64,000 nucleotides of DNA from a bacterium (GTDB lineage: Bacteria; Patescibacteriota; Minisyncoccia; Phycocordibacterales; Zambryskibacteraceae): positions 32,001-96,000 of the forward strand of contig JAUSGI010000008.1 in assembly GCA_030649135.1 (NCBI GenBank), read 5' to 3'. Shown piece after piece: positions 15,711 to 57,590 of this stretch (the stretch's first letter is position 1; every line of letters starts with the position of its first letter). The notes below the pieces were generated by a model that did no database searches, was not told the DNA's origin, and worked only from the letters and a program-made list of their open reading frames with translations. A program made the position numbers and the translations under genes.

Positions 15711-15928
15711 AACTATATGAAAGTTTTGATGAAAATGATTAGACTGCTTGCTTTCTTTCTTTTGGCGCCGATTTATGTGCCGGCATATCTCTTGATGACC
15801 TTCACCTTCAAATGGTGGTCATCCCTTTTGGATAAATAGAAATTGGTTGATTTGCTACCTTTTTTCGGCTAGTATAGCCGATGGAAACGGTATTATTTCG
15901 CGAGGCATATCAACCACAGGAGGGGAAC

Positions 15929-16681
15929 ATGGGTGGTACAAAGCTATTAAAGCCAGCGGAACGACTAGTTGTTGGGGTTGAATCTAAGCCCAACCCGAAG
16001 CGTGGTCAGAACCGCGATTGGGCGGTGGGTCAAGTCATCAATCTCGCCCACAAGCTCAAGGGCACCGAGGTCTACATCAAGGTCGAATCCACACTCGTAG
16101 CTTGCGGTTATGACCTTATCGCTGTGATTCACAGTTGTGGCCTTAAGGTCTTCGCAGACACCAAGCTCTCCGGTATGCCCGAGAAGCTCTCGGCCCACGG
16201 CGTACTCCTCAATGAGTACAAACCCGAGCTCGTTACGGTGATGTGTGCCACCGGGGTTACCGGGATGAAGGCGCTTAAGGCCGAACTGCCGAACACGGAA
16301 GTGCTCGGCGTACCGGTCCTTACAAGCTTCAAGGATACCGATGCGGATGAGGTATTCGACCGTTCGGTTGATGAGGCGGTCATACGATTTGCCCGGCTGG
16401 CAGATGACGCCGCCATCGATGGCCTCATCCTGGCACCAGGAGAAGTACAGATGATTCGGAAGAACTTCGGTGAAGTGATGACCTTAAACTGTCCTGGCGT
16501 TCGTTCGGACTGGATGGTCATCCGGGACGATGACCAGAATTATGGGCGTGTTATGACACCAGCGATGGCTATCAGGGCCGGCGCCGACCGTGTCATCGTG
16601 GAACGAGCGGTGACGCAGTCACTGCATCCGTATGAGGTGGTCATGCGCCTCATCGAGGAGATCGCCTCCATCAGACCGTGA
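15929..16681 (+). CDS. pyrF: Orotidine 5'-phosphate decarboxylase (GC-rich gene)
   Basis: Key OMP decarboxylase motifs: FADTKL, NCPGVR and DQ..V.TP..A...GAD..VV.R. SD AGGAGGGG sits 4 nt before the ATG at 15929. The track ORF begins earlier at 15881. Confidence 0.75.
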   Translation: MGGTKLLKPAERLVVGVESKPNPKRGQNRDWAVGQVINLAHKLKGTEVYIKVESTLVACGYDLIAVIHSCGLKVFADTKLSGMPEKLSAHGVLLNEYKPELVTVMCATGVTGMKALKAELPNTEVLGVPVLTSFKDTDADEVFDRSVDEAVIRFARLADDAAIDGLILAPGEVQMIRKNFGEVMTLNCPGVRSDWMVIRDDDQNYGRVMTPAMAIRAGADRVIVERAVTQSLHPYEVVMRLIEEIASIRP

Positions 16682-16795: not shown

Positions 16796-17452
16796 TTACT
16801 TGGCAAACCGATAGGCTTGAATCTCTTCATAGATGTTGAGGGGAATGGTGTCCATGTCACGGTAGAGCCGGAGGAGCTCGGAAACACTTAGCGCAGCGTG
16901 AAGCAACAGGCCATGGGCGTTGAGGTTGTTCCGGCCCCCTTCTTCGCGGTCGATGAGCACGAAGACGTCTCGCACTTTAAGTCCGTAGAGTCCGTGAGCT
17001 CTGAGCACTTTGGCAGCAGTGAGTATGCTACCTGCCCTGTTGATGACTCCATCGAACAAGAGCACACTTGCTCCTGACGACCAAACACCGTCGATGTCAC
17101 CACCACCACCGTAGCTCTTCGGTGCTTTCGGAGTGATCATTGGGAATTCGGTACGATCCGAAAGCGAAGATACGACAGGTGTAATGGCAGTGGGGACATC
17201 GGCCAGAATCTCGCAGTCGAATGGTTCTATCATTTCCTCGAAGATGTCCACGGCCGTGGCTTTGGCTCCGGTCGGGTACGACCGCAGGACTGCTAGGTCG
17301 AGATAGTAAGGGGATAGCGGGGCGTCTGGTTCTGTTAGGTGCCTGTGAAGCTGGAATCCATTTCCACCGGGTGACTTACCCCTGTCCTTAAATGCCCCGC
17401 ACTGGTACAGCTCCTCCGCGAATTGTTTCTTGAGGTTGTCTAACCTGCTCAT
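16796..17452 (-). CDS. pyrE: Orotate phosphoribosyltransferase-like (type I PRTase), GC-rich
   Basis: PRPP-binding loop VLLFDGVINRAGSILTAAKVLRAHG. Size and the pyrF pairing fit. Confidence 0.65.
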   Translation of the reverse strand: MSRLDNLKKQFAEELYQCGAFKDRGKSPGGNGFQLHRHLTEPDAPLSPYYLDLAVLRSYPTGAKATAVDIFEEMIEPFDCEILADVPTAITPVVSSLSDRTEFPMITPKAPKSYGGGGDIDGVWSSGASVLLFDGVINRAGSILTAAKVLRAHGLYGLKVRDVFVLIDREEGGRNNLNAHGLLLHAALSVSELLRLYRDMDTIPLNIYEEIQAYRFAK

Positions 17453-18367: not shown

Positions 18368-18456
18368 ATAAACCCAATTCTACAACAGTTTGACTTCTCT
18401 TATTCCCTAGAGCAGACTTGACGCCAGACACAACCAACTTCCTTGCGGAGGGCTAT

Positions 18457-19281
18457 ATGCCTAAGAAGGGCTCACTCCTGGCTGAAGGTAAGACCAAGAA
18501 GATCTGGCGCGACGCACACACGACCTCTGGAGTTCTCATCGAGAGTAAGGATGAAGTAACTGCGGGCGATGGTGTCCGGCGGAAAGAATTCGAGGGCAAA
18601 GGCGCCTACTCGACCGCCACCACCGCAAAGTGCTTCGAGCTTTTGACGGCTCACGGCATCCCCAACCACTTTCTCAGGGGCTTCGACGCAACAACCTTCT
18701 GTGCACGGAAGCTCAGGATGATCAAGAAGGAGGTAGTTGTTCGACGTGTGGCAACCGGCTCCTACCTCAACCGCCGGCCTGATGTCGAGGAGGGCACGCT
18801 ATTCAAACCAGTGGTCGTCGAGTTCTTCGCCAAGATCGATGAAGAGCACGACCCGCTGGTGATCCACGACTTTGTCAGCGAGCGCATTCTCCTCTTCCAT
18901 GCGAGGAAACCTCTGGCAGAGGGCTATCTACGTGAGGTAGCCATGGCAGATGGACGGGCCACGGAATGGTTCGCTCTGCGCGAGATGGTCTCGCTCGCTG
19001 AACAGACCTTCGCTGCTCTCGAGGCGGCGTGGGCTACACAGGACGTCATGCTCGTCGATCTCAAGATCGAGTGTGGTAGGGACGATACTGCTAGTGGTAG
19101 AATCGTCGTCGGCGACGTTATCACCAACGACGAGTGGCGTATCTGGCCTGGTGGCGACAAGTCTCGCCAGCTGGACAAGCAGGTTTTCCGGGAGACGCCG
19201 GAGGCTACCCACGAAGCGATGAAGGCTCTCAAGGCCAACTACGCTAAGGTGGCGGAGATGGTGGAGAAGTTCCCGGTCTGA
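18457..19281 (+). CDS. purC: Phosphoribosylaminoimidazole-succinocarboxamide (SAICAR) synthase, GC-rich
   Basis: LLAEGKTKKIW near the N-terminus; LVDLKIECG and DEWRIWP. SD GGAGGG lies before the ATG at 18457. Confidence 0.75.
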   Translation: MPKKGSLLAEGKTKKIWRDAHTTSGVLIESKDEVTAGDGVRRKEFEGKGAYSTATTAKCFELLTAHGIPNHFLRGFDATTFCARKLRMIKKEVVVRRVATGSYLNRRPDVEEGTLFKPVVVEFFAKIDEEHDPLVIHDFVSERILLFHARKPLAEGYLREVAMADGRATEWFALREMVSLAEQTFAALEAAWATQDVMLVDLKIECGRDDTASGRIVVGDVITNDEWRIWPGGDKSRQLDKQVFRETPEATHEAMKALKANYAKVAEMVEKFPV

Positions 19282-26423: not shown

Positions 26424-26500
26424 ACTGTTGACTTTTCTTCAAAAAGAGAGTATTATTCAGATAGACGAAATGCATCTCCCCACTGACTGAGGAGACTCCG

Positions 26501-26944
26501 ATGACAGAGAGATTCTCTCCCCACTTTCACCCCTGTGGTGGTCACCACGTCCACCTTGTCACGGGGCCAGGTTTTGGTGCCTCGGCGCCCTTCGCTTCTA
26601 TCCCGGCAGGAGAGTGCGTCATCGAAGGGGCCACCGACCGGAACGACCCTCAAGATGTTGAAGATGCAGCTCGACTCAAGAAGGAGCTTGGTGGTCTTAA
26701 GCTCCGCGCCGAAAGAGGACGAGCCAGAGGACTCTACTCTCATGCCAAGTGGCCCGACCAACTCGTTCCATACTGGACGGACTTCATCAACAACAAGCTG
26801 GCACCTAGGGAGTCCGCCGTTTTTGGTACATTTGCCTGCGATTTCGTGGGCAGGTGCGTGCGGGAAACGGATGGTGGTGACCCGCAGGGAGTTCTGCGGG
26901 TCAAAAAGGTCAGTGAGGTGCTAAGGCCAAAGGTTTCGGTCTAG
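26501..26944 (+). CDS. Hypothetical protein in GC-rich islet
   Basis: SD GAGGAG before the ATG. A + strand terminator follows. No recognisable domain. Confidence 0.4.
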   Translation: MTERFSPHFHPCGGHHVHLVTGPGFGASAPFASIPAGECVIEGATDRNDPQDVEDAARLKKELGGLKLRAERGRARGLYSHAKWPDQLVPYWTDFINNKLAPRESAVFGTFACDFVGRCVRETDGGDPQGVLRVKKVSEVLRPKVSV

Positions 26945-26949
26945 CATCT

Positions 26950-26995
26950 CGCAGGCGAGCGAGCCCCGACAGAGCCCCGTGCAATCTGCACGACC
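26950..26995 (+). terminator. Rho-independent terminator
   Basis: gagccccgtgcaatctgcacgacctttgcgcggggctc then ttttattt. Confidence 0.5.
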
Positions 26996-27011
26996 TTTGC
27001 GCGGGGCTCTT

Positions 27012-27404
27012 TTATTTAATCGAATCTATTTTAATTTCGAAGTAGGGTTGGCGGTGGCCGTATTTTTTGTAGTAGCGCGACTTCTGTTTGTATTTGATAA
27101 CGTCAATAGTTTTATATCTGGCTATTTTAGCTAAAGTAGCTTTTACTTCCGCACCCTTAATAAATGGTGTACCAATAGTGGCCTCGCTTGCGCCATCATC
27201 CACCAACAGCACTTTATCAAAGACGAGTTTGTCCCCTTCTTTATACTCATCACCAAGTTTCTCAATTTTGACCTTATCCCCCACTACCACGCGATATTGT
27301 TTGCCACCGGTAGTAAAGACGGCATAAAGAGCCTTGGTAGGCTTTTGGGGAGCCTTAGGGGTGGTTTTCTTAACTGCTTTTATAGGCGTTTTACTCTCTT
27401 CCAT
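27012..27404 (-). CDS. rplU: 50S ribosomal protein L21 with N-terminal Lys/Pro-rich extension
   Basis: YAVFTTGGKQYRVVVGDKVKIEKL...KYKQKSRYYKKYGHRQPYFEIKI matches L21. Confidence 0.9.
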   Translation of the reverse strand: MEESKTPIKAVKKTTPKAPQKPTKALYAVFTTGGKQYRVVVGDKVKIEKLGDEYKEGDKLVFDKVLLVDDGASEATIGTPFIKGAEVKATLAKIARYKTIDVIKYKQKSRYYKKYGHRQPYFEIKIDSIK

Positions 27405-40125: not shown

Positions 40126-40174
40126 ACTAAAGTTATCCCCTTTTTATCCCCTCCTTATCCCCAATACTAAAAAT

Positions 40175-40195
40175 GTCAAACACCAGGTGTTTGAC
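40175..40195. promoter_or_regulatory. Perfect 21-bp palindrome GTCAAACACCAGGTGTTTGAC upstream of mraZ
   Basis: 10-bp arms are exact reverse complements. Could be an operator or a hairpin terminator of the upstream (minus-strand) gene. Confidence 0.45.
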
Positions 40196-40282
40196 ACAAT
40201 ATAATTCTGAAATAGAGAAAGCCTCACACAGAGAAGCCATGCTTGGCTTTTTCTATGCGAGGCCTACCGCTCGTGGTGGTCG

Positions 40283-40513
40283 TTAGAGCGACCAGTCCAT
40301 GCCTGGCATCCTCTGGTCCCGATCGTCCTCCGTGACCGCCTGAGCATTGGCAGGGACGAGATCCCATTCCCTCGGGACATCGTCGCCGATGCCGAGACCA
40401 GGGCAGTCGGGTTTCGTCACGAAGATGTAGGTTTCTCCTACCTTCCTGGCAAGTCCTCCCCCCTGCGTTCCGTAAATACCGAAGTTGTAGGTACAACCTT
40501 TCTTGGTATTCAT
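40283..40513 (-). CDS. Small hypothetical protein (76 aa), GC-rich insert
   Basis: SD GGGAGA 4-5 nt upstream of the ATG. GC far above the flanks. No recognised domain. Confidence 0.4.
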   Translation of the reverse strand: MNTKKGCTYNFGIYGTQGGGLARKVGETYIFVTKPDCPGLGIGDDVPREWDLVPANAQAVTEDDRDQRMPGMDWSL

Positions 40514-40574
40514 TGGTCTCCCTTCTTCCGAAGTTATCTACCGCTATCTTATCATACTACTACTTATATGTCAA

Positions 40575-40620
40575 GGATAGCTTTTTTAGCGTTGGATTGG
40601 ATAAAGGATTTACGGTAGTA
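40575..40620 (-). pseudogene. Duplicated fragment of gyrB 3' end (encodes ...RKSFIQSNAKKAILDI*)
   Basis: The minus-strand translation matches the last 16 aa of gyrB (RKSFIQSNAKKAVLDV*) at 41604-41651. About 85% nt identity over ~45 nt; not part of any longer ORF. Confidence 0.5.
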
Positions 40621-40916: not shown

Positions 40917-41047
40917 TGATTAGGTTATCCACACCTATCCCCTAAAAATTGGCTATTTGCTCTCCATATTACTTTCATAGTATAGTATGGGTGTGTCTGC
41001 GGGACGTCAGTCCTATCTAGCCAAATATTGCGCTGGAGACAGGCACA

Positions 41048-41422
41048 CTAAAGGATGTCGCTTATGGCGGCATTTTTTAGTGTCTCATCGTCATCGGAAG
41101 ATCGTAGCCCTTTTCCAGTAGATGTTTGTATCATTTTTATATCCCTATATTGTTTAGTGAACCATGCTGGTACAACACTTAGGAATTCAATAGCACCGTT
41201 ACCTTCTTGTGTTACTACGACTTTTACACGGAATTTCTGCACTATGGCTACAAAACCCCAACAACGGATAACGACATTCATTGGCACCCAAAGTCCTCTC
41301 CGATTTACTTTCTTGTAAACGATTTCCTCATCGTATTCTTGAAATGTAGTAGACGTCTCAAGTATGAATTTCGCCTTCTCAAGCATGTCAAAACGAAGTA
41401 TTTGCGCTCTTTTATCTCTCAT
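41048..41422 (-). CDS. Hypothetical protein (124 aa) within insert between gyrB copies
   Basis: Open frame; no recognised domain. Confidence 0.35.
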   Translation of the reverse strand: MRDKRAQILRFDMLEKAKFILETSTTFQEYDEEIVYKKVNRRGLWVPMNVVIRCWGFVAIVQKFRVKVVVTQEGNGAIEFLSVVPAWFTKQYRDIKMIQTSTGKGLRSSDDDETLKNAAISDIL

Positions 41423-41603: not shown

Positions 41604-43559
41604 TCACACGTCTAAAACGGCTTTTTTAGCGTTTGATTGGATGAAAGATTTGCGGGAAGGGACGTCGGTGCCCATGAGAATGTCGAAAATACGGTCCGCT
41701 TCTCTCGCATCCACAACAGTTACTTGTTTAAGAATTCTCGCTTTTGGATCCATGGTTGTTTCCCAAAGTTCTTCCGAGTTCATTTCCCCGAGACCTTTAT
41801 AACGTTGGATGTCGGCGCCTTCGATAGTCTTCTCGTTTTTTTCTTCGTCGGAATAGACATAAATAATTTCTTTCCCTTTTTTGATTTTATAGAGCGGCGG
41901 TTGAGCGATGTAGACATAGCCGGCATCGATGAGCGGTCTGAAAAATCTATAAAGTAATGTCAAGAGTAGAGTACGGATATGCGCGCCATCAACATCGGCA
42001 TCGGTGGCAATAATAATTTTGTGATAACGGAGTTTAGTGATATCAAAAGTATCCCCTATTGCCGTGCCGAAGGCGATGACTAGGTTTTTAATCTGTTCGC
42101 TCGCGAGCATCTTATCTAGACGCGCGCGCTCAATATTGAGAATCTTACCGCGCAAAGGGAGTATGGCTTGGATGCGTCTGTCTCTTCCCATCTTGGCGGT
42201 ACCGCCAGCCGAATCTCCCTCAACGATAAAGAGCTCTGCTTCTTCTGGGGTAGTGCCAGACTGGCAATCAGAGAGTTTGCCAGGCAGAGTCATGCCCTCA
42301 AGCGCTCCTTTGCGCAGGACTGAGTCCTTGGCCGCCTTGGCGGCTTTGCGCGCCTTGAGCGCGAGTACCACCTTCTGAATCATACTTCTGGCATCATCGG
42401 GATTTTCCTCAAGATAGGCAGAGAATGCGTCACCGAAGACGGTATTAACCATGCTCTGGGCCTCCACGCTACCGAGTTTTGATTTGGTCTGTCCCTCAAA
42501 TTGAATCTCACGCAATTTAATCGAAATGACAGCAGTCAGACCCTCGAGCGCGTCATCTCCGGTGAAGTTATCCTCCTTTTCACTCACCATATTATTCTTG
42601 CGGGCGTATGAATTTAGACTTCTGGTCAGGGCAGTCTTGAAACCGGTAACGTGAGTACCGCCTTCAGTAGTGTAAATATTATTGGCGAAAGGCAGGATGC
42701 GGGAAGAGATATCATCGACATATTGCAGGGCCACCTCCACTGTCTCGTAGTCGTTACCGTTCGCCTTCTTCTCAACATAGAAAATATTTTTATGTATCGG
42801 TTTGTTTCGCTCATTTTCGAATCGTACGAGAGATACCAGTCCCCCTTCGAAATAAAAAGACATGGAAGGTGTTTCCAGTCCCAACTCTCGTAGATAAAAG
42901 ACTTCGCTATCGGCAACTTTTGCTATCCCTCGGGCATCCAGGACCGATATGCGGAGACCCTTGACGAGATATGCCTGCTGGCGCAAATGATCGGCAATCC
43001 GTTCGAAGTTGAAGTTGGTATCCGGGAAAATAGCGGGGTCCGGTTGAAAGGTAATGACGGTACCATGGAGTTTTGAGGCGCCAATTTTCTTGACTGCACT
43101 TTTTCTTTTGCCCTGGCTGTACTCTTGAGCATAAACTCCCCCATCTCGGTGCACTTCGGCCCGGCAATAAATAGAGAGAGCATTGACTACCGAGCCACCG
43201 ACGCCGTGTAGTCCTCCGGAGATTTTGTATCCCTCTCCGCCGAACTTGCCGCCGGCATGCAGGGTAGTCATGATGGTCTCGAGTGCCGAGACTTTGGTTT
43301 GTTTGTGCGTATCAACCGGAATACCCCGGCCGTTATCAACCACGCGGACACGATTGTTGGGCAAGAGCACAACCTCTATATCGTCGGCAAATCCCCCCAT
43401 GGCCTCATCCCGAGAGTTGTCGAAAATCTCCGTCACAAGGTGGTGGAGGCCGTCGGGACCGGTGGTACCGATATACATGCCTGGACGTTTGCGCACCGGC
43501 TCGAGACCCTCTAAGACCGTAATTGATTCAGCGCTGTAATTGCTCTCTTTTTTCGGCAT
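41604..43559 (-). CDS. gyrB: DNA gyrase subunit B
   Basis: GHKL ATPase LHAGGKFGGEGYKISGGLHGVG. Toprim EGDSAGG. C-terminal tail. Confidence 0.9.
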   Translation of the reverse strand: MPKKESNYSAESITVLEGLEPVRKRPGMYIGTTGPDGLHHLVTEIFDNSRDEAMGGFADDIEVVLLPNNRVRVVDNGRGIPVDTHKQTKVSALETIMTTLHAGGKFGGEGYKISGGLHGVGGSVVNALSIYCRAEVHRDGGVYAQEYSQGKRKSAVKKIGASKLHGTVITFQPDPAIFPDTNFNFERIADHLRQQAYLVKGLRISVLDARGIAKVADSEVFYLRELGLETPSMSFYFEGGLVSLVRFENERNKPIHKNIFYVEKKANGNDYETVEVALQYVDDISSRILPFANNIYTTEGGTHVTGFKTALTRSLNSYARKNNMVSEKEDNFTGDDALEGLTAVISIKLREIQFEGQTKSKLGSVEAQSMVNTVFGDAFSAYLEENPDDARSMIQKVVLALKARKAAKAAKDSVLRKGALEGMTLPGKLSDCQSGTTPEEAELFIVEGDSAGGTAKMGRDRRIQAILPLRGKILNIERARLDKMLASEQIKNLVIAFGTAIGDTFDITKLRYHKIIIATDADVDGAHIRTLLLTLLYRFFRPLIDAGYVYIAQPPLYKIKKGKEIIYVYSDEEKNEKTIEGADIQRYKGLGEMNSEELWETTMDPKARILKQVTVVDAREADRIFDILMGTDVPSRKSFIQSNAKKAVLDV

Positions 43560-43642
43560 TTAAGTTTCCCCTATTCTAGCATAAATAGAGCTAGAAAGAA
43601 AGAGAAAATGTGTCAAAAACCCATATATAGGTTATAATTTAA

Positions 43643-44125
43643 GTGATGGTTATTTCAGAAGACAAGATTAGACGAGCAATAGAAGAAAAAGAGATAAGTA
43701 TACAGCCATTCAATGGGTCTTTACTTAAAGATGTTAGTTACACTTTCACTCTAAGTAACAAGTTTTGTCTGCCAAAAGTTACTACCGAATTCATTGACGC
43801 AAGAGATTCTATAGAGTTTGAAGAAAAAGTGATGCCTGATGAAGGATACTTACTTAGGCCTGGAGAATTTATTGTCTGTTATACCAAAGAAAAAGTCACT
43901 TTAAATAACAAATTCGTTTGTTTAATAAGTACAAGAGCATCGTTAGCTCAAATGGGATTAAATGTTACTCAAGGTTCCTTCCTGACAGGATCTGATACGG
44001 ATAACATCTTTGCGCTAGAGACAAGTAATAATGGAAACCTGCCCATTAAATTATTCCCTGGAATGAAGATAGCGAAAGGGGTTTTCCTAAGAGTAGACTC
44101 GGATTCTAGTTCTAACATTGGGTGA
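43643..44125 (+). CDS. dcd: dCTP deaminase-like (dUTPase superfamily)
   Basis: VSYTFTLSNKF; LRPGEFIV; ISTRASLAQMGLNV; LFPGMKIAKGVFL. These align to the dCTP deaminase blocks. Confidence 0.65.
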   Translation: MMVISEDKIRRAIEEKEISIQPFNGSLLKDVSYTFTLSNKFCLPKVTTEFIDARDSIEFEEKVMPDEGYLLRPGEFIVCYTKEKVTLNNKFVCLISTRASLAQMGLNVTQGSFLTGSDTDNIFALETSNNGNLPIKLFPGMKIAKGVFLRVDSDSSSNIG

Positions 44126-44257
44126 TGTTTTGTATATACAATAAAATTATATTATGCTATAATCACAAGTGGATTATACGCCTGTTTTAAGGCCAGCCAT
44201 GCACTCTCCAGGCATTTCGGGACTTGAGCCCGTTCAGCCTAGAAAGGAGGGATGTGC

Positions 44258-44434
44258 ATGCTAAATGTGATTTCGCTGGATCAACCCGTCCGGTTCGTGG
44301 ATAGGTCGGGCCAGCCCTGCGAGGGGAAACCTCTATTTCTCTCGCGGGACACGTATGGTAACTGGGGTCTCTCTGTTCAATACAGTGAAACAGGGATTTC
44401 CTGGGTTGCTTTCGACCAAATCAAGCAGTAGTAC
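44258..44434 (+). CDS. Small hypothetical protein (58 aa) in GC-rich islet
   Basis: SD AAAGGAGGG immediately before ATGTGCATG. MLNVISLDQPVRFVDRSGQPCEGKPLFLSRDTYGNWGLSVQYSETGISWVAFDQIKQ. Below the track cutoff. Confidence 0.35.
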
Positions 44435-44910
44435 TGCTGGTCAAAAGCAATTGCCCGTCTAGAACAGACGTGAGCGGAAATCCACATGAAGTCCCTAAAT
44501 GGCAAGGGTATAAGTGTGGGCGAGACCGCAGACTCGGCATCCCTCTTGCCGTCTTCCAATGAGGCACGCATCTACTGTGGGCTGAGGAAGAGAAAAGAGA
44601 CAAGGCGATTGGTTCCCAATCGTCTTCCGTCCAAAGTTTGTTTATGAAAATAGATTTTGGACGGAGGAGGTATCCCAATATATCCATGACCTAACTAGGC
44701 CATTATTTTAGAGCGTATTTAATACCATCAATCATGATTGACTTATCTATTTACATATGCTATCATTAACAGCAGATTAGATCGCAAGGCTTCCGTTCCC
44801 CGCCAGTTAAAGGGGATTACAAACCGGCATCGACTCACAAGATGAGTCATGCCAATGAAGTTCCTTCAAGAGTCTCAGTCACACAAGTGACTAGACGCGG
44901 GAGAAGTAAA

Positions 44911-45258
44911 ATGTGGTATCAGTACGGATGGGGAGAAGAGAAGGACATGCAGCGCTCAGCAGAGCGTTGGATGTGCAAGGGGTTTCAAGTTCGGGCCAAC
45001 CTCCAGCAGGGGACGGCTTGGGCCCTCGTGTCGGATTTCACCTTCCCTGGTGCGATCCCACATGAGACTTGCCCGGATTGTAGGGGAACCGGCTGGTGCT
45101 CGCACCATATCCCGGACTGCCCTGGCGAGCAGGTCTGCGACGGGAAGTGCTACACGTGCGTCGAGAGCGGGACGATCTGCCTCCAGCCCACCTGGGCGGA
45201 GGGTCGGGTCGTAACGCTCGAGGAAGCGGTGGCCTACCTGAAGCAGGGCCATCACTAA
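44911..45258 (+). CDS. Cys-rich protein with DnaJ-type CxxCxGxG zinc-finger-like motifs, GC-rich
   Basis: CPDCRGTGWCSHHIPDCPGEQVCDGKCYTCVESGTIC. Strong terminator downstream. The start is probably MWYQYGWG, after a GGAGAAG SD. Confidence 0.45.
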   Translation: MWYQYGWGEEKDMQRSAERWMCKGFQVRANLQQGTAWALVSDFTFPGAIPHETCPDCRGTGWCSHHIPDCPGEQVCDGKCYTCVESGTICLQPTWAEGRVVTLEEAVAYLKQGHH

Positions 45259-45275
45259 GATCACAACGTGTCACC

Positions 45276-45318
45276 AAGGCCCTGCGCGACTAGCAATCGC
45301 GCAGGGCCACTTCTTTTT
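45276..45318 (+). terminator. Rho-independent terminator
   Basis: ggccctgcgcgactagcaatcgcgcagggcc then acttcttttt. Confidence 0.6.
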
Positions 45319-45436
45319 ACACTCCTTCTTCTATTCTCGTTCTTACATTTATAATACGCTGTAGCGTAAATTAAGTGTATACGTTATAAAGTGTCTATAG
45401 GTAGAAGATAACGTGTGTATATATCTTCTTAAAAAC

Positions 45437-46579
45437 TCAAACCCTGCGAATTTCGGCTTTGAAGTCTGTTTCAGTTTTATTCTCGAGTTCGGCGTGGAGT
45501 TTATTGACCTCCTCGTTAGTTAATGTTCTTTCTAGGCTACGGTAAGTAATGCGGAAAGTGTAACTTAACTTCCCAACGCCAAATTTCTCCGTGTTCTCGT
45601 ATTTGTCCAAAAGTTCTACTTGCTCAATCAAATTTCCTCCTATATCTCGGATGACATCGAAATAATCATTGGGCACGAAGTCCTTGTCTACCACGAAGGA
45701 AATGTCCCGTATCACCGGTGGAAATTTAGAGACTTCTTTAAATTTAGTGCCAAGTGTTAATTGTGATTTCACTCTCTCGTCTGTAGACCAAAGCAGGCGA
45801 ATATCAGGCAAGTCCATGGCCATCATGGCGAGACGTTCAAGGCCGAAACCGAATGCCCAGCCGTGATACTCGGTTAAGCCGAAATTGGAAAGCACACTCT
45901 TTTTAGGCATACCGGAGCCGAGCATCTCAACCCACTTTCCCTTCACTTCCGCTTCCATCTCAAAACTTGGGTCAGTATAAGGAAAGTTATGGTCATAAAA
46001 GCGGAAGTTTGTACCTTTGTCAAAAATGTTTTCAGCAACTTCCGTAAGAACGTTTTTGAGGTCTTCCGGTTTAACGGTCATCTTGGCATCGGGCACGAGA
46101 TATAGTCCGCCTATCTGGTGAAATACATTCATATGAGTACGGTCTATCTCATCCTTGCGGTATACCTTGCCGAAACAAATTACTCTCAAAGTTTCTCCCC
46201 TTTTTATTTTTTCCTTGATAGACGGATGGTTCAAGTAGTAATACCAGAATACCGTGTCGTGAGTACGTAACACATGATTTTCGTCCACATAATATGTGTC
46301 TGATTTACTTCTGGCCGGGTGTCCGGGAGGCATGTTAAACAAGTCAAACAAAATCTCGGTAGAAATAATTTCCGGTATTTGAATTATGTCAAAACCTTCA
46401 AGACTCCGGACTTTGAGAGTTCGGTCCACCACCTCCTTTAATGGGCTGCCGGTAGCGCGAGAAAGGTCCGGTAGGGAAAGAAAGCGTTTCAGGCGCTCCG
46501 ATTCCGGGTCGTTTTTCGTCTCTAGGTCCTTGCGTAATTTCTGCTCTTCCTCTGATTGAATTACTATATTTTCTGCCAT
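45437..46579 (-). CDS. pheS: Phenylalanyl-tRNA synthetase alpha subunit
   Basis: HPARSKSDTYY; GKVYRKDEIDRTHMNVFHQIGG; FGFGLERLAMM. Confidence 0.9.
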   Translation of the reverse strand: MAENIVIQSEEEQKLRKDLETKNDPESERLKRFLSLPDLSRATGSPLKEVVDRTLKVRSLEGFDIIQIPEIISTEILFDLFNMPPGHPARSKSDTYYVDENHVLRTHDTVFWYYYLNHPSIKEKIKRGETLRVICFGKVYRKDEIDRTHMNVFHQIGGLYLVPDAKMTVKPEDLKNVLTEVAENIFDKGTNFRFYDHNFPYTDPSFEMEAEVKGKWVEMLGSGMPKKSVLSNFGLTEYHGWAFGFGLERLAMMAMDLPDIRLLWSTDERVKSQLTLGTKFKEVSKFPPVIRDISFVVDKDFVPNDYFDVIRDIGGNLIEQVELLDKYENTEKFGVGKLSYTFRITYRSLERTLTNEEVNKLHAELENKTETDFKAEIRRV

Positions 46580-48589: not shown

Positions 48590-48946
48590 TTAGGTCTTGA
48601 GTGACCACGGCGGCTGGAGTTTCCCGATGTAGGTCTTTGGCCCGCCGTACTGATCTGCTGTGATGTCGACGATCGTCCCGTCGTCCATCTGAAAGAACGT
48701 GTGGTTTTCCTCGCCGTACCTCCCTTGGATGATTGCGCCTAAACCGAGTCGGTGGCGCAGGTAGATAGTTGCCGCACCACAGGCAAGGTGCGGGAACGAG
48801 CCGAGTATTTGCTTCACGAAGAGTGCGGTATCACCGACATCGGCATACGCGCCATAGAGTTCGGCAAGTAACGCCTCGTCGACACTCTTCGTCTCGAACG
48901 CTCTCCGGACATCTCCCACGATGCTTTGTAGTTCGGCTTCGTACAT
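48590..48946 (-). CDS. Hypothetical protein (118 aa), GC-rich islet
   Basis: SD AGGGGG before the ATG. No recognised domain. Confidence 0.45.
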   Translation of the reverse strand: MYEAELQSIVGDVRRAFETKSVDEALLAELYGAYADVGDTALFVKQILGSFPHLACGAATIYLRHRLGLGAIIQGRYGEENHTFFQMDDGTIVDITADQYGGPKTYIGKLQPPWSLKT

Positions 48947-51216: not shown

Positions 51217-51322
51217 CGATAAGTTTAGCAGAAAAGCCCGTCTCTTACAAGGATAGAAAAACACCCTCGACTGTTGCCAGCCGAGGGTGTGGTGACTGTT
51301 GGGTCTGCGGGAGCGCGGACGC

Positions 51323-51580
51323 TTAGCTGGGCGTTTCCTGTTTTCTTACCTTCCTTTTCTTGCGAAAAGGAGAGTCACGGTGTAAGACGGTACACCACGC
51401 CTTACCGTCGCTTCCAGCCTCGGCGCTACCAGATATATAGCCCCGGTAGTCTACGAGGATGTCCTCAGAGCCGGACATGCCAGGCGTGTGGTTTTCGCAC
51501 CACTTGATCTCCAGCATTTCCTTCGTGGAGTCGGCATCTCCTTCACACCCTGGGCAGTAGGGGCGCGCCGTCTCGCTCAT
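51323..51580 (-). CDS. Small Cys-containing hypothetical protein, GC-rich
   Basis: MSETARPYCPGCEGDADSTKEMLEIKWCENH... The ATG overlaps the upstream stop (ATGA). Confidence 0.35.
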   Translation of the reverse strand: MSETARPYCPGCEGDADSTKEMLEIKWCENHTPGMSGSEDILVDYRGYISGSAEAGSDGKAWCTVLHRDSPFRKKRKVRKQETPS

Positions 51581-51834
51581 AGCGCCCTCCCTGCAGTCCA
51601 CAGACCAAGGTCGTAGAGACGGCGTTTGTCGAGGTTCGCGTCGTACCTACAACGACTGCACTGTACCCTGATAGACTCGCCTTTCACGAGCCCCATGATG
51701 ACCATCTCGGCCTTGCAGACGAAGTGTATGGCCTGGTTGTTCTCGATGGTGATGGTTCTCGGGTTCTTCGTCTGGTCAATCCGTAGGATAGGGGGTAGGT
51801 CATCCTTATCACTCAAAAATGCTAGGAGATTCAA
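51577..51834 (-). CDS. Small hypothetical protein with CSRC motif, GC-rich, TTG or internal start
   Basis: ...VQCSRCRYDANLDKRRLYDLGLW. No ATG at the ORF start (TTG); the start is uncertain. Confidence 0.3.
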   Translation of the reverse strand: MNLLAFLSDKDDLPPILRIDQTKNPRTITIENNQAIHFVCKAEMVIMGLVKGESIRVQCSRCRYDANLDKRRLYDLGLWTAGRAL

Positions 51835-51894
51835 ATAGTTCGGAGCGGCCTAACCCCACCTTACCTAGAAATATAGAAAAATCAACCGGGGTGT

Positions 51895-55946: not shown

Positions 55947-57590
55947 TTACTCGATTGCGATGTGAGATTCAAGATACTCCAAAGTGCCGTTCACCTTCTT
56001 GCCGGGGTTGAAGATATTTTGTGGGTCGAAAATTTCTTTGGTTTGTTTGAAGAGTCCCAGTACCTTCGGCGAATACATTTTATTTAAATACGGAGTGCGG
56101 ACGATGCCGTCATTATGTTCAGCAGTAGTCGTTCCCTTATACTCCGCTACTAAGTCATAAAACTTATCAGCAACAATTGGAATCTTTTTTCGCTCACTTT
56201 CTTTTCTCAAATCCATAAGCGGAATGATGTGGAAATTGCCGTTACCCGCGTGTCCGGCGATATTAGCCTCTATACCCGCCTCTTCAAGAATTTTGAGCGC
56301 CCGCGGCAGAAATTCCGGAACTTTCTCAGCCGAGATACAGAAATCATCCACGAAGGGGGCCGTTCTTTTACCCTTGACATGTTTTCTCAATAGATTAAAC
56401 GACTCTCTGCGCATGACCCAGAATTTTTCTTCTTCAGAATCCTTTTCTATCACTCTTGACCAGACATTAAACGACTTGAGAGCTTCCATAACTTTTTTAA
56501 CCTTTTCTTTTACTTCTCCTTCTGCTTGTTCAGCTATCTCTACCAAAATGATGAGTTTGGGTAAACCAAGCATTCTTAATCCAATAAGAATTTCTGGAAT
56601 AAATTGCGCGGCAAATGATACGAGTCCGGTTCCGGCTTTTCTGGCAATTTCTGGCATGAAGCGGATACCTAGCTTGAGCGTATCTTCATCAAAGGTCTCG
56701 AGACTCTCTGGGTCATGGGGCAAGATAGCATTGACCACTTGCGGAAGCTCATCCCATGATTTTAAGAAAAGTGCGACCATGTCGTGATACTTTTTTTCAG
56801 GCACTAACTTTAGTTTCATTTCCGTGACGATGCCAAGTGTCCCCTGCGAACCCACCAAAAGCTTATTTATGTCAAACACCTGGTGTTCGACATCCCAGAC
56901 ATTCCAAAGGTAATATCCGGCAGAGTTTTTTGATACTTTAGGTTTTGCTTGTGCCAGAGCTTCTTTATTATCTTCCACCAGACTGAATATCTTTTGGTAA
57001 ATACTGCCCTCGAAATCTCCTTGTGCCATCTTGACATCAAGTTCGGTTCTGGAGAGAGGCTTGACTACATACTCATTGCCATCAGCGAAAATCACTTTTG
57101 ATTCCAGAATAAAGTTTTCCATTTTGCCGTAGCGTAAACTTCTCTCCCCCGCACAATTATTGCCAAACATACCACCGAGAGCGCACAAATTTTTTGAAGC
57201 CGTAAAGCAAGGCAAGATGAGTCCTTTTTCTTGCGTCCTTTGCTCAAAATCACGATAGAACATTCCCGGCTCTACCAACACAGAGGTTAAACCTTTGTGC
57301 TCGGAGATCTCAGCCATTTTATTAAGATATCTTGTCACGTCGGCGACTACCGACTCGCCGAGTGGTCCACCGGTCATATCCGAACCGGCTGCTCTGACGG
57401 TGACAGAATTACCAGGATTCTCCCCTACCCATTTGACAAGATTCTTCAAGTCTTCGGTATCTTTCGGGAATACCACAAGCTTAGGCTTCACTTCAAACAA
57501 TGAGGCATCGTGCGAATATGTCTTGAGGGTCGCTTCGTCATCCGAAATATCGCCTTTAAAAAATTTCCTGACTTCTTCCGCTAAGGTCAT
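55947..57590 (-). CDS. FAD-linked oxidase (GlcD/D-lactate dehydrogenase-like)
   Basis: FAD_binding_4-type N-domain ...VTVRAAGSDMTGG... and a C-terminal FAD-oxidase domain. 547 aa. Confidence 0.8.
   Translation of the reverse strand: MTLAEEVRKFFKGDISDDEATLKTYSHDASLFEVKPKLVVFPKDTEDLKNLVKWVGENPGNSVTVRAAGSDMTGGPLGESVVADVTRYLNKMAEISEHKGLTSVLVEPGMFYRDFEQRTQEKGLILPCFTASKNLCALGGMFGNNCAGERSLRYGKMENFILESKVIFADGNEYVVKPLSRTELDVKMAQGDFEGSIYQKIFSLVEDNKEALAQAKPKVSKNSAGYYLWNVWDVEHQVFDINKLLVGSQGTLGIVTEMKLKLVPEKKYHDMVALFLKSWDELPQVVNAILPHDPESLETFDEDTLKLGIRFMPEIARKAGTGLVSFAAQFIPEILIGLRMLGLPKLIILVEIAEQAEGEVKEKVKKVMEALKSFNVWSRVIEKDSEEEKFWVMRRESFNLLRKHVKGKRTAPFVDDFCISAEKVPEFLPRALKILEEAGIEANIAGHAGNGNFHIIPLMDLRKESERKKIPIVADKFYDLVAEYKGTTTAEHNDGIVRTPYLNKMYSPKVLGLFKQTKEIFDPQNIFNPGKKVNGTLEYLESHIAIE

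What the first reader, a model, noticed from the sequence alone, without database searches (positions are those of the whole stretch)
44150..45320. GC-rich, structure-rich islet between dcd and pheS with two small strongly expressed-looking ORFs (one DnaJ-type zinc-finger-like)
GC is about 55-60% against ~40% in the flanks. The 58-aa ORF has a near-perfect SD (AAAGGAGGG). A ~400-nt spacer is full of hairpins (cgattggttcccaatcg; tccgtccaaa..tttggacgga). A 116-138 aa protein carries CPDCRGTGWC...DCPGEQVCDGKCYTC, which resembles CxxCxGxG zinc fingers. A very strong terminator follows. It could be a foreign mini-operon, or a structured ncRNA plus a small protein.
Basis: seen in the sequence. Interest (0 to 1): 0.5.

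Follow-up and report, generated by a model that had tools for sequence, protein, structure and literature searches.

The report
Foreign orphan small-gene cassettes beside gyrB
A 1.2-kb GC-rich stretch in a tiny-genome Parcubacteria bacterium is a strain-specific insertion holding two self-contained small genes found nowhere else, one for a cysteine-rich, probably zinc-binding protein; it looks like picked-up accessory DNA, and is only moderately remarkable.

Summary
Positions 44170-45320 contain two GC-rich blocks (49-54% and 58-66%; the window averages 46.7%), and the second is the GC maximum of the whole window. The stated Shine-Dalgarno (SD) site, hairpins, Cys-rich ORF and terminator are all present.

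In the closest relatives with little or no insert there (five loci: gaps of 63-113 nt), pheS and gyrB are adjacent. None of the 80 related loci encodes the dcd-like gene or either islet ORF. The dcd-like gene plus the islet therefore form a 1.84-kb lineage-specific insertion in a variable slot.

The islet is two co-oriented monocistronic cassettes:
- **Cassette 1:** extended -10 promoter, SD-occluding leader, 57-codon ORF, structured 3' region.
- **Cassette 2:** second promoter, 137-nt four-hairpin leader, 115-codon Cys/His-rich ORF (GC3 0.77), strong terminator.

Codon-position GC supports coding on the + strand. The antisense ORF that an automatic gene caller picked is a shadow. I found no homologue, no Pfam, PHROG or PADLOC family, and no Rfam family.

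RNA folding is far more stable than in shuffled sequence (z -6 to -7), but without relatives there is no covariation test.

Best reading: moron-like, horizontally acquired orphan cassettes of unknown function. Three similar cassettes lie elsewhere in the window. Interest is modest.

The parts
43600..45436 (.). The whole lineage-specific insertion between the gyrB promoter and the pheS stop codon. It contains the dcd-like cassette and the GC-rich islet.
   Evidence: In relatives L003, L004, L008, L010 and L025 the gap from the pheS stop to the gyrB start is 63-113 nt. In the window it is 1877 nt. None of the 80 related loci encodes the dcd-like protein, ORF59 or ORF138.
43643..44125 (+). Divergent dCTP-deaminase-like gene (160 aa, GC 36%, GC3 0.30) with its own promoter-like site at 43610-43638. 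It flanks the islet and is co-oriented with it, but its base composition is the opposite.
   Evidence: Pfam DCD E 1.2e-19. TIGR02274 scores 80 bits, below the 92.8 cut-off. It aligns to M. tuberculosis Dcd 2qlp at E 1.8e-13, with SSLGRLGL replaced by ASLAQMGL and DPGF by TGSD.
44135..44163 (+). Promoter P1: -35 TATACA, 17-nt spacer, extended -10 TGcTATAAT.
   Evidence: 10 of 12 matches, TG present. TRTGCTANNAT occurs only three times in the 64-kb window: at the gyrB promoter, P1 and P2.
44170..44260 (+). Leader of cassette 1. In a long irregular hairpin, CAUGCACUCUCC (44198-44209) pairs with the SD and start codons GGAGGGAUGUGCAUG (44246-44260).
   Evidence: Fold of 44170-44275: -34.6 kcal/mol, z -2.05. 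The SD AAAGGAGGG is at 44243-44251.
44258..44431 (+). ORF57 (59 aa if started at ATG 44252): an orphan small protein predicted as a three-stranded beta meander.
   Evidence: Codon-position GC is 0.55/0.40/0.60. The SD lies 7 nt upstream. Single-sequence AlphaFold2 gives pLDDT 69. No homologue or family was found.
44432..44685 (+). Structured 3' region of cassette 1, ending in tandem hairpins at 44603-44625 and 44626-44665. Probably a 3' UTR that acts as a stabiliser or a terminator without a U-tract.
   Evidence: The hairpins fold at -40.2 kcal/mol with z -7.2 on the + strand, against -27.8 kcal/mol and z -1.7 on the - strand. The frame of ORF57 continues with two in-frame stops into ORF53, and the third-position GC signal there is weak.
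44738..44766 (+). Promoter P2: -35 TTGACT, 17-nt spacer, extended -10 TGcTATCAT.
44774..44910 (+). Leader of cassette 2 (about 137 nt). Four hairpins are enclosed by a closing helix that pairs CUUCCG with the SD region CGCGGGAG. The SD GGGAGAAG is at 44899-44906.
   Evidence: Fold of 44774-44920: -51 kcal/mol, z -4.97, with 0 of 200 shuffles as stable. No Rfam match.
44911..45258 (+). ORF116 (115 aa; 138 aa if started at ATG 44842): an orphan Cys/His-rich protein, probably zinc-binding, with one CxxCxGxG motif.
   Evidence: Codon-position GC is 0.59/0.50/0.77. Third-position GC reaches 0.80-0.93 and starts to rise only at 44910. A full HMMER search of 1.84 billion proteins returned only spurious hits to repeat proteins. 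Motif-level hits to DnaJ, anti-TRAP and lambda Q are weak.
45278..45318 (+). Intrinsic terminator: a perfect 12-bp GC-rich stem followed by ACTTCTTTTT. It also faces the convergent pheS gene.
   Evidence: Fold -27.1 kcal/mol, z -5.9.
44956..45264 (-). Antisense shadow ORF (98-102 aa). It is not a gene, but it is the ORF an automatic gene caller picked on the identical public contig.
   Evidence: L001 gene table. Its codon-position GC of 0.77/0.51/0.61 is the mirror image of the sense frame. It matches only itself in the 5.8-billion-cluster database.

Best explanation
**What it is.** The islet is the GC-rich part of a 1.84-kb lineage-specific insertion in the pheS-gyrB intergenic slot of a Zambryskibacteria-like Parcubacterium. 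It consists of two horizontally acquired, self-contained small-protein gene cassettes on the same strand. Their architecture matches phage 'morons': extra transcription units with deviant base composition, their own sigma-70-type promoter and their own terminator, sitting between genes that are adjacent in relatives.

**Cassette 1.**
- Promoter P1, with an extended -10.
- An approximately 88-nt leader whose 5' half pairs with the SD and the start codon.
- A 57-codon ORF.
- An approximately 250-nt structured 3' region that ends in tandem hairpins.

**Cassette 2.**
- Promoter P2.
- A 137-nt four-hairpin leader that also occludes the SD.
- A 115-codon ORF for a Cys/His-rich, probably zinc-binding protein.
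- A strong intrinsic terminator that also insulates the convergent pheS gene.

**Shown here.**
- The insertion status.
- The foreign composition.
- The coding periodicity on the + strand.
- The promoter, SD and terminator consensus matches.
- Folding stability well beyond shuffled controls.
- The absence of any homologue.

**Inferred, not shown.**
- The units are transcribed from host-type promoters.
- Translation is gated by the leader helices.
- The DNA arrived by illegitimate or homology-facilitated recombination in a recombination-prone zone around gyrB.
- The products act as small binding or regulatory proteins, with a zinc-finger type for ORF116, possibly of phage or mobile-element descent.

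The cellular role of the two proteins is not established.
For: **Synteny.**
- The order GT2 | pheS > gyrB > mraZ > rsmH is conserved in relatives.
- The pheS-gyrB gap is 63-113 nt in L003, L004, L008, L010 and L025.
- The dcd-like gene, ORF59 and ORF138 are absent from all 80 related loci.
- The same slot holds unrelated genes in other relatives: a PaaX_M/Cas2-like ORF in L002 and L005, and a Peptidase_C39_2 plus NlpC/P60 pair in L017 (Pfam-tested) with similar paired ORFs in L027, L040 and L050.

**Composition.**
- 44951-45250 is the GC maximum of the window.
- ORF116 has the highest GC3 of any gene in the window, 0.77 against 0.38-0.58 for native genes.

**Coding.**
- Both ORFs show GC3 > GC1 > GC2, and the GC3 signal of ORF116 begins at ATG 44911.
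- SD sites sit 7 nt upstream of both start codons.
- ORF57 gives pLDDT 69 from a single sequence.

**Signals.**
- P1 and P2 match 10 of 12 consensus positions with a TG extension.
- Within the window, they share TRTGCTANNAT only with the conserved gyrB promoter.
- The terminator is confirmed.

**Structure.**
- Leader, 3' hairpins and whole-transcript folds give z -2 to -7.
- Other GC-rich genes of the window average -0.4 to -1.2.

**Context.**
- The neighbouring gyrB-mraZ gap is also expanded, from 150-180 nt to 1543 nt.
- It contains another GC-rich orphan cassette and a relic duplicate of the gyrB 3' end.
- Similar cassettes lie at 26.4 kb and 51.3 kb.

**Reproducibility.** An identical 4775-bp contig exists in a separate public assembly, Logan SRR13727527.

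**Moron definition.** Taken from PMC3594210.
Against: - No homologue exists for either protein, so purifying selection cannot be measured and neither ORF is proven to be a gene.
- ORF57's periodicity is only marginal with 57 codons. Its region is unusually structured for a coding sequence (z -3.3 to -4.3), which would also fit a non-coding RNA.
- No phage genes, integrase or significant flanking repeats were found. The mode of acquisition is therefore unknown, and 'moron' applies by architecture only.
- Promoters and terminators are consensus predictions. No expression data are available.
- The tandem hairpins lack a U-tract, so where transcript 1 ends is uncertain.
- The AlphaFold2 model of ORF116 is poor (pLDDT 42.6).
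Confidence: 0.57

Rival explanations
1. Cassette 1 (about 44170-44680) is mainly a structured non-coding or dual-function RNA of about 500 nt, and ORF57 is incidental or secondary. Cassette 2's 137-nt leader is a new cis-regulatory RNA such as a riboswitch, a thermometer or a protein-binding leader.
For: - 44170-44700 folds at -213 kcal/mol with z -7.05, and 0 of 100 shuffles are as stable.
- Every 150-nt window across ORF57 has z -3.3 to -4.3, against about 0 in neighbouring genes and about -1 in other GC-rich genes.
- The + strand is about 23 kcal/mol more stable than the - strand.
- The tandem hairpins are strongly + strand specific.
- Leader 2 has z -4.97.
- GC-rich islands in AT-richer genomes are often structured RNAs (general knowledge).
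Against: - No Rfam family matches, even at E up to 10 with permissive filters.
- No related sequence exists anywhere, so covariation cannot be tested.
- ORF57 has a near-perfect SD at ideal spacing, coding-type GC periodicity and a protein-like structure prediction.
- The - strand also folds well (z -5.0), so part of the signal is simple palindromy.
Confidence: 0.17
2. The islet is decaying, functionless debris of transferred DNA: pseudogenised fragments from a high-GC donor that happen to retain open frames.
For: - There are no homologues at all.
- ORF57's frame continues into ORF53 through two in-frame stops, with a weak third-position GC signal beyond the stop. That fits a truncated, formerly longer gene.
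- Composition is a mosaic: the dcd-like gene at 36% GC sits next to blocks of 52% and 62%.
Against: - Both ORFs keep good SD sites at optimal spacing.
- Both have host-type extended -10 promoters of a kind that is rare in the window (8 sites in 64 kb).
- A perfect terminator is present.
- ORF116's GC3 of 0.8-0.93 has not ameliorated towards the host value, and its frame is intact for 115 codons.
- This much retained expression machinery is not expected in drifting debris.
Confidence: 0.15
3. The islet is a toxin-antitoxin or other addiction or defence module. Examples would be a type I-like system with a structured toxin mRNA and an antisense RNA from the 44731-44702 minus-strand promoter-like site, or a dCTP-deaminase-based defence operon with two accessory proteins.
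For: - SD sequestration by a 5' anti-SD is typical of type I toxin mRNAs (general knowledge).
- A minus-strand promoter-like site at 44731-44702 and a minus-strand terminator-like hairpin at 44622-44606 could frame an antisense RNA of about 110 nt.
- The dcd-like gene is co-oriented with the islet, and no terminator lies between them.
Against: - There is no hydrophobic small peptide anywhere in 44150-44900.
- The minus-strand RNA folds poorly (z -1.7), and its -10 is weak.
- PADLOC finds nothing for the dcd-like protein, ORF59 or ORF138.
- The dcd-like gene has the opposite composition (GC3 0.30 against 0.60-0.77), so it does not share an origin with the two ORFs.
- The ORFs are 480 nt apart with separate promoters, unlike type II pairs.
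Confidence: 0.06
4. The islet is an assembly chimera: reads from a high-GC organism were joined into a Parcubacteria contig.
For: - Composition changes abruptly.
- The sequences are found in no other dataset.
- The only other record comes from a single sequencing run.
Against: - An identical 4775-bp contig spanning GT2, pheS, the islet, the dcd-like gene and the gyrB start exists in a separate assembly.
- The GC-rich blocks sit exactly between host-type promoters, SD sites and terminators, and are flanked on both sides by syntenic native genes.
- Three further cassettes of the same design exist in the window.
Confidence: 0.03

Closest known systems
Phage 'morons' (HK97/HK022 type; reviewed in PMC3594210)
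   Same: - An extra transcription unit lies between genes that are adjacent in relatives.
- Its GC content differs from the surroundings.
- It has its own sigma-70-type promoter and its own factor-independent terminator.
- Its small accessory ORFs are often of unknown function.
   Different: - It sits in a housekeeping chromosomal region (pheS, gyrB, mraZ) of a Parcubacterium, not in a phage or prophage.
- No phage gene lies nearby, and there is no PHROG match.
- Two cassettes lie in tandem, and their leaders and 3' regions are unusually structured.
DnaJ cysteine-rich zinc-finger domain and its small relatives (anti-TRAP, the zinc finger of lambda Q antiterminator)
   Same: - ORF116 has an exact CxxCxGxG (CPDCRGTG).
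- That motif is followed by seven further Cys and two His within 38 residues.
- The weak best hits are to DnaJ, anti-TRAP and lambda Q.
   Different: - There is only one canonical repeat, whereas DnaJ has four and Q and anti-TRAP have two.
- All matches are non-significant (E 0.02-0.6, scores far below cut-offs), and Pfam gives no hit.
- There is no J domain, no Q fold evidence and no confident structure model.
Small genomic islets acquired by illegitimate or homology-facilitated recombination at variable intergenic slots
   Same: - Presence or absence varies among relatives at one slot, and other lineages carry different cargo there.
- Composition is a mosaic.
- The neighbouring insertion is bounded by a duplicated gyrB 3' end.
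   Different: - This islet has no integrase, no tRNA target and no significant direct repeats. There is only an 8-bp TGTATATA at 44131 and 45416, which is at chance level.
SD-sequestering mRNA leaders (type I toxin mRNAs, RNA thermometers, riboswitch expression platforms)
   Same: In both leaders, an upstream pyrimidine-rich anti-SD pairs with the SD as the closing helix of a multi-hairpin leader.
   Different: - There is no match to any Rfam family.
- There is no hydrophobic toxin peptide.
- No ligand-binding motif is recognisable.
- Conservation cannot be tested.

Membership tests
Phage moron | Extra DNA between two genes that are adjacent in related genomes | tested here: met
   pheS and gyrB lie 63-113 nt apart in L003, L004, L008, L010 and L025, against 1877 nt here.
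Phage moron | Own promoter and own factor-independent terminator | tested here: met
   Consensus level only. P1 is at 44135-44163 and P2 at 44738-44766, each matching 10 of 12 positions with a TG extension. The terminator is at 45278-45308. There are no expression data.
Phage moron | GC content different from the neighbours | tested here: met
   52-65% GC against 36% (dcd-like gene) and 44% (pheS). ORF116 GC3 is 0.77 against 0.38-0.58 for native genes.
Phage moron | Resides in a phage or prophage genome | tested here: not met
   The flanks are pheS, gyrB and mraZ. There is no significant PHROG hit (best E 0.029), no match in the phage collections, and nothing in a six-frame Pfam scan.
DnaJ-type CXXCXGXG zinc finger (Pfam DnaJ_CXXCXGXG; anti-TRAP) | Significant match to the family model | tested here: not met
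   Pfam gives no hit at E up to 1. NCBIfam DnaJ scores 13.7 bits against a cut-off of 585, and anti-TRAP scores 12 bits against 65.
DnaJ-type CXXCXGXG zinc finger (Pfam DnaJ_CXXCXGXG; anti-TRAP) | Two or more CxxCxGxG repeats forming the zinc centres | tested here: not met
   Only CPDCRGTG fits the motif. The remaining Cys follow a C-x6-C-x5-C-x3-C-x2-C-x6-C pattern.
DnaJ-type CXXCXGXG zinc finger (Pfam DnaJ_CXXCXGXG; anti-TRAP) | Binds zinc | not testable with these tools
   This needs metal analysis of purified protein.
Any described RNA family (Rfam 15) | Covariance-model score at or above the gathering threshold | tested here: not met
   The whole window at gathering threshold gives only two tRNAs. 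Permissive scans of the islet give only miRNA-hairpin noise of 14-21 bits, against thresholds of 54-90.
Type I toxin-antitoxin | Small hydrophobic toxin peptide plus an overlapping antisense RNA | tested here: not met
   No hydrophobic ORF of 20 aa or more lies in 44150-44900. The candidate antisense RNA folds weakly (z -1.7), and its promoter matches only 9 of 12 positions.
Integrative genomic island | Integrase and flanking att-type direct repeats | tested here: not met
   The six-frame scan shows no integrase domain. The only bordering repeat is an 8-mer with E 3.5. The adjacent insertion at gyrB's 3' end does have a 52-nt duplicated gene end.
Known anti-phage defence systems (PADLOC) | Match to a defence-system protein model | tested here: not met
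   There are no hits for the dcd-like protein, ORF59 or ORF138.

The most novel reading that the evidence does not exclude
The islet and its three look-alikes in the window belong to an undescribed class of minimal, GC-rich promoter-ORF-terminator cassettes. The look-alikes lie at 26430-27015, 40210-40580 and 51262-51860. On this reading, such cassettes colonise intergenic slots of candidate phyla radiation (CPR) bacterial chromosomes, here clustered around gyrB next to a group of DnaA-box-like repeats. Their unusually stable RNA structures, including a roughly 500-nt transcript from P1 and two SD-occluding leaders, would be functional regulatory or non-coding RNAs rather than by-products.
Probability: 0.1. 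Interest if true: 0.6.

Novelty: new member of a known kind. Interest (0 to 1): 0.3.

Why it matters
If the reading is right, even a very reduced Parcubacteria genome takes up and wires in foreign small genes at defined intergenic slots next to essential genes. It would do so using strong host-type promoters and insulating terminators.

There is also a practical lesson. The real + strand gene (ORF116) is missing from a 15-billion-protein collection, because the gene caller chose the antisense shadow ORF. High-GC orphan genes inside lower-GC genomes can therefore be mis-called systematically.

The proteins have no relatives, so nothing can yet be said about their role. The structured leaders would become interesting only if homologues or expression data appear.

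Tried and rejected
**Homologue searches that found nothing real.**
- Word-index searches with ORF138 and ORF59.
- A full HMMER search of 1.84 billion representative proteins. Its three hits were summed short matches in repeat proteins, with none of the Cys aligned.
- A search with the antisense product, in case gene callers had stored the wrong strand. It matched only itself.
- Scans of viral and metagenome contigs. The single hit, L083, is the tail of an unrelated 240-aa ORF.
- BLAST against phage and plasmid collections.
- blastn and tblastx against the 80 related loci.

**Family searches that found nothing.** Pfam, PHROG, NCBIfam and PADLOC on the ORFs, and a six-frame Pfam scan.

**Structure.**
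- The ORF116 model has pLDDT 42.6 and is unusable.
- The ORF57 model has pLDDT 69, but Foldseek against the PDB gave no match below E 1.9.

**Mobile-element signatures.** There are no meaningful direct or inverted repeats at the islet borders.

**Other ideas considered and dropped.**
- Homology among the GC-rich orphan proteins of the window: none found.
- An antisense small RNA across the tandem hairpins: rejected, because the structure is specific to the + strand.
- A start at ATG 44842 giving 138 aa: disfavoured, because there is no SD and the GC3 signal begins only at 44910.
- An ORF124-RecR C-terminal similarity (blastp E 5e-4): not supported at the DNA level.
- Exact look-ups of the gyrB and mraZ proteins, to find other strains: not on record.
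Full report
**Observation**

The described features are all present.
- In 200-nt windows, GC is 49-53.5% over 44200-44700. It falls to 38-41% around 44600-44900 and rises to 58-66% over 44900-45300.
- The flanks are 35-36% (dcd-like gene) and 38-48% (pheS).
- The window mean is 46.7% (sd 5.2% in 300-nt windows). 44951-45250, at 64.7%, is the highest value in the whole 64 kb.
- AAAGGAGGG sits at 44243-44251, ahead of ATG 44252 and ATG 44258.
- The quoted hairpins are at 44606-44622 and 44626-44665.
- The Cys-rich ORF is 44842-45258.
- The terminator is 45278-45308, a 12-bp stem with 10 G-C pairs followed by a T-run.

**Organism and synteny**

The pheS product is 84% identical to that of a Parcubacteria MAG. 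It is 75-79% identical to those of other Parcubacteria-group MAGs, two of them labelled Zambryskibacteria.

In those relatives the order is GT2 | pheS > gyrB > mraZ > rsmH. The pheS-gyrB gap is only 63-113 nt in L003, L004, L008, L010 and L025. In the window the gap is 1877 nt.

None of the 80 related loci encodes the dcd-like protein, ORF59 or ORF138. None resembles the islet by blastn or tblastx. The dcd-like gene and the islet are therefore a lineage-specific gain.

The slot is variable in other lineages too. L002 and L005 carry a PaaX_M/Cas2-like ORF there. L017 carries a Peptidase_C39_2 plus NlpC/P60 pair (Pfam-tested), and L027, L040 and L050 carry similar paired ORFs.

An identical 4775-bp contig exists in a separate public assembly of run SRR13727527. 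This argues against a chimera.

**Anatomy**

The islet is two co-oriented units.

Unit 1:
- Promoter P1 (44135-44163: TATACA, 17 nt, TGcTATAAT).
- A leader in which CAUGCACUCUCC (44198-44209) pairs with GGAGGGAUGUGCAUG (44246-44260), burying the SD and both candidate start codons (-34.6 kcal/mol).
- ORF57 (44258-44431).
- A 250-nt structured tail ending in tandem hairpins at 44603-44665. These fold at -40.2 kcal/mol with z -7.2 on the + strand, against -27.8 kcal/mol and z -1.7 on the - strand.

Unit 2:
- Promoter P2 (44738-44766: TTGACT, 17 nt, TGcTATCAT).
- A 137-nt leader of four hairpins, closed by a helix that pairs CUUCCG with the SD region (-51 kcal/mol, z -4.97).
- SD GGGAGAAG at 44899-44906.
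- ORF116 (44911-45258).
- The terminator.

The motif TRTGCTANNAT occurs only three times in the window: at P1, at P2 and at the gyrB promoter. The gyrB promoter is conserved in relatives as TRTGCTAAAAT. The more general TRTGNTANNAT occurs eight times. The cassettes therefore carry the strong extended -10 promoter type of this lineage.

**Coding or not**
- Codon-position GC for ORF116 is 0.59/0.50/0.77. In a frame plot the third-position phase reaches 0.80-0.93, and it rises only from 44910 onward. This favours ATG 44911 over ATG 44842 as the start.
- ORF57 shows 0.55/0.40/0.60. That is the coding pattern, but it is marginal with 57 codons.
- The antisense ORFs of 79-102 aa are mirror images of the sense frame (GC1 0.77). 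Yet the gene caller on the public contig chose one of them. As a result the real product is absent from the protein collections.
- Native genes of the window have GC3 of 0.38-0.58. ORF116 has the highest GC3 of all.
- Single-sequence AlphaFold2 gives pLDDT 69 and a three-stranded beta meander for ORF57. It gives an unusable pLDDT of 42.6 for ORF116.

**Homology**

None was found.
- The word-index searches returned nothing.
- A full HMMER scan of 1.84 billion representatives returned three hits. All are summed short matches in repeat proteins, with no Cys aligned.
- The antisense product matched only itself.
- Viral, metagenome, phage and plasmid searches were empty, apart from one chance hit.
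- Pfam, PHROG and PADLOC gave nothing, and neither did a six-frame Pfam scan.
- NCBIfam and PDB sequence searches gave only sub-threshold motif-level hits of the Cys-rich segment: DnaJ at E 0.023, anti-TRAP at E 0.17 and lambda Q at E 0.56.

ORF116 has one exact CxxCxGxG and ten Cys in all. 'Zinc-binding' is therefore a reasonable inference, but membership of the DnaJ-type family is not supported.

**RNA**

Rfam gives nothing at gathering thresholds. Permissive scans give only miRNA-like hairpin noise.

Even so, the islet is exceptionally self-complementary.
- 44170-44700 has z -7.05 and 44774-45320 has z -5.93 on the + strand.
- The - strand gives z -5.0 and -4.8, and is about 23 kcal/mol less stable in each half.
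- In a 150-nt scan the islet averages about -2.9 (my average of the 16 + strand windows). The neighbouring genes are near 0. The other GC-rich genes of the window (purC, pyrF and others) average -0.4 to -1.2.

I read the structured parts as leaders, a 3' UTR and a terminator of two mRNAs. A non-coding or dual-function RNA from P1 cannot be excluded, because there are no relatives for a covariation test.

**Context**

The same design recurs three more times in the window: host-type promoter, SD, GC-rich orphan small ORF and hairpin terminator.
- 26430-27015: ORF147.
- 40210-40580, on the minus strand: ORF76.
- 51262-51860, on the minus strand: ORF85 and ORF92. ORF92 has a CPGC...C..H pattern and a basic tail.

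The gyrB-mraZ gap is also expanded, to 1543 nt against 150-180 nt in relatives. It holds a relic second copy of the gyrB 3' end at 40563-40614, which translates to RKSFIQSNAKKAILDI*. About 1 kb was therefore inserted there with duplication of the gene end. The -35 element of the ORF76 promoter lies inside that relic.

No such repeat bounds the islet studied here.

**Interpretation**

The best-supported reading is a pair of horizontally acquired orphan small-gene cassettes with moron-like architecture. Morons are extra transcription units with deviant GC and their own promoter and terminator, located between genes that are adjacent in relatives (PMC3594210). Here they sit in a chromosomal housekeeping slot rather than in a prophage.

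What the proteins do is unknown. ORF116 is probably a small zinc-binding protein. Translation of both ORFs is plausibly gated by the leader helices.

Rival readings are:
- a structured ncRNA in unit 1 (0.17);
- functionless decaying DNA (0.15);
- a toxin-antitoxin or defence module (0.06);
- an assembly chimera (0.03).

**Verdict**

The feature is real and foreign. It is a new, homologue-less member of a known kind. Interest is modest unless expression data or homologues turn the structured RNA parts into something testable.

Noticed in passing
window 40210-40580 (- strand): A second GC-rich (57-59%) orphan cassette. It has a promoter (TTGACA, 16 nt, TAAGAT with TG), SD GGGAGA, a 76-aa ORF at 40283-40513 and a hairpin terminator at about 40220-40265 (-31.5 kcal/mol, z -4.9). 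No Pfam, NCBIfam, PADLOC or PHROG hit.
   Followed up: partly
window 40563-40614 versus 41604-41654 (- strand): A relic duplicate of the gyrB 3' end, translating to RKSFIQSNAKKAILDI* against the live gene's RKSFIQSNAKKAVLDV*. It bounds an insertion of about 1.04 kb that holds ORF124, a structured element and a 62-aa membrane-like ORF. This looks like integration with target-end duplication, or homology-facilitated recombination. In relatives the gyrB-mraZ gap is only 150-180 nt.
   Followed up: partly
window 40985-41085 (+ strand): A strongly structured element of about 100 nt (-46.6 kcal/mol, z -5.6). It has a TATAGT -10-like box upstream and a terminator-like 3' hairpin, and it converges on the 3' end of ORF124. 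It may be a small RNA or a bidirectional terminator. No Rfam match at the gathering threshold.
   Followed up: partly
window 26430-27015 (+) and 51262-51860 (-): Two more GC-rich orphan cassettes with promoter-like sites, SD and strong terminators. They encode ORF147 (26501-26944), ORF85 (51577-51834) and ORF92 (51323-51601). ORF92 has CPGC...C..H and an RKKRKVRK tail. No Pfam hit for ORF147 or ORF92 (ORF85 was not run against Pfam), and no significant PHROG hit for any of the three.
   Followed up: partly
window 40133-40163 and 40925-40933; L002-L010 gyrB-mraZ gaps: A cluster of DnaA-box-like repeats lies upstream of mraZ (TTATCCCC three times; relatives have TGTGGATAA or GTGGATAAC). GTGG repeats resembling MraZ boxes are next to it. 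The only perfect TTATCCACA in the window is at 40925. The region may be near oriC.
   Followed up: partly
window 40173-40196 and 56869-56893: The 24-nt palindrome ATGTCAAACACCAGGTGTTTGACA occurs twice in the window. One copy is just upstream of the mraZ region. It could be an operator.
   Followed up: no
window 43643-44125 (+): The 'dcd' is a divergent DCD-family protein. TIGR02274 scores 80 bits, below the 92.8 cut-off. Against M. tuberculosis Dcd, SSLGRLGL becomes ASLAQMGL and DPGF becomes TGSD, while the LE(L/T)SN glutamate is kept. Its GC3 of 0.30 is among the lowest in the window. It is absent from this slot in all 80 related loci, so it is itself an acquired gene.
   Followed up: partly
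window 45437-46579 (-): PheS is a 380-aa protein that carries a C-terminal FDX-ACB anticodon-binding domain. That domain is normally part of the beta subunit or of monomeric organellar-type PheRS. No pheT lies adjacent.
   Followed up: no
window 15881-16681, 16796-17452, 18418-19281, 48590-48946: A class of GC3-rich genes (0.61-0.70), including pyrF-like (OMPdecase) and purC (SAICAR synthetase). These are probably also horizontally acquired in this reduced genome.
   Followed up: no
L001 2972-3268 = window 44956-45252 (-): The automatic gene call on the identical public contig picked the antisense shadow ORF (98 aa) instead of the + strand ORF116. The likely real protein is therefore missing from the large protein collections.
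   Followed up: yes
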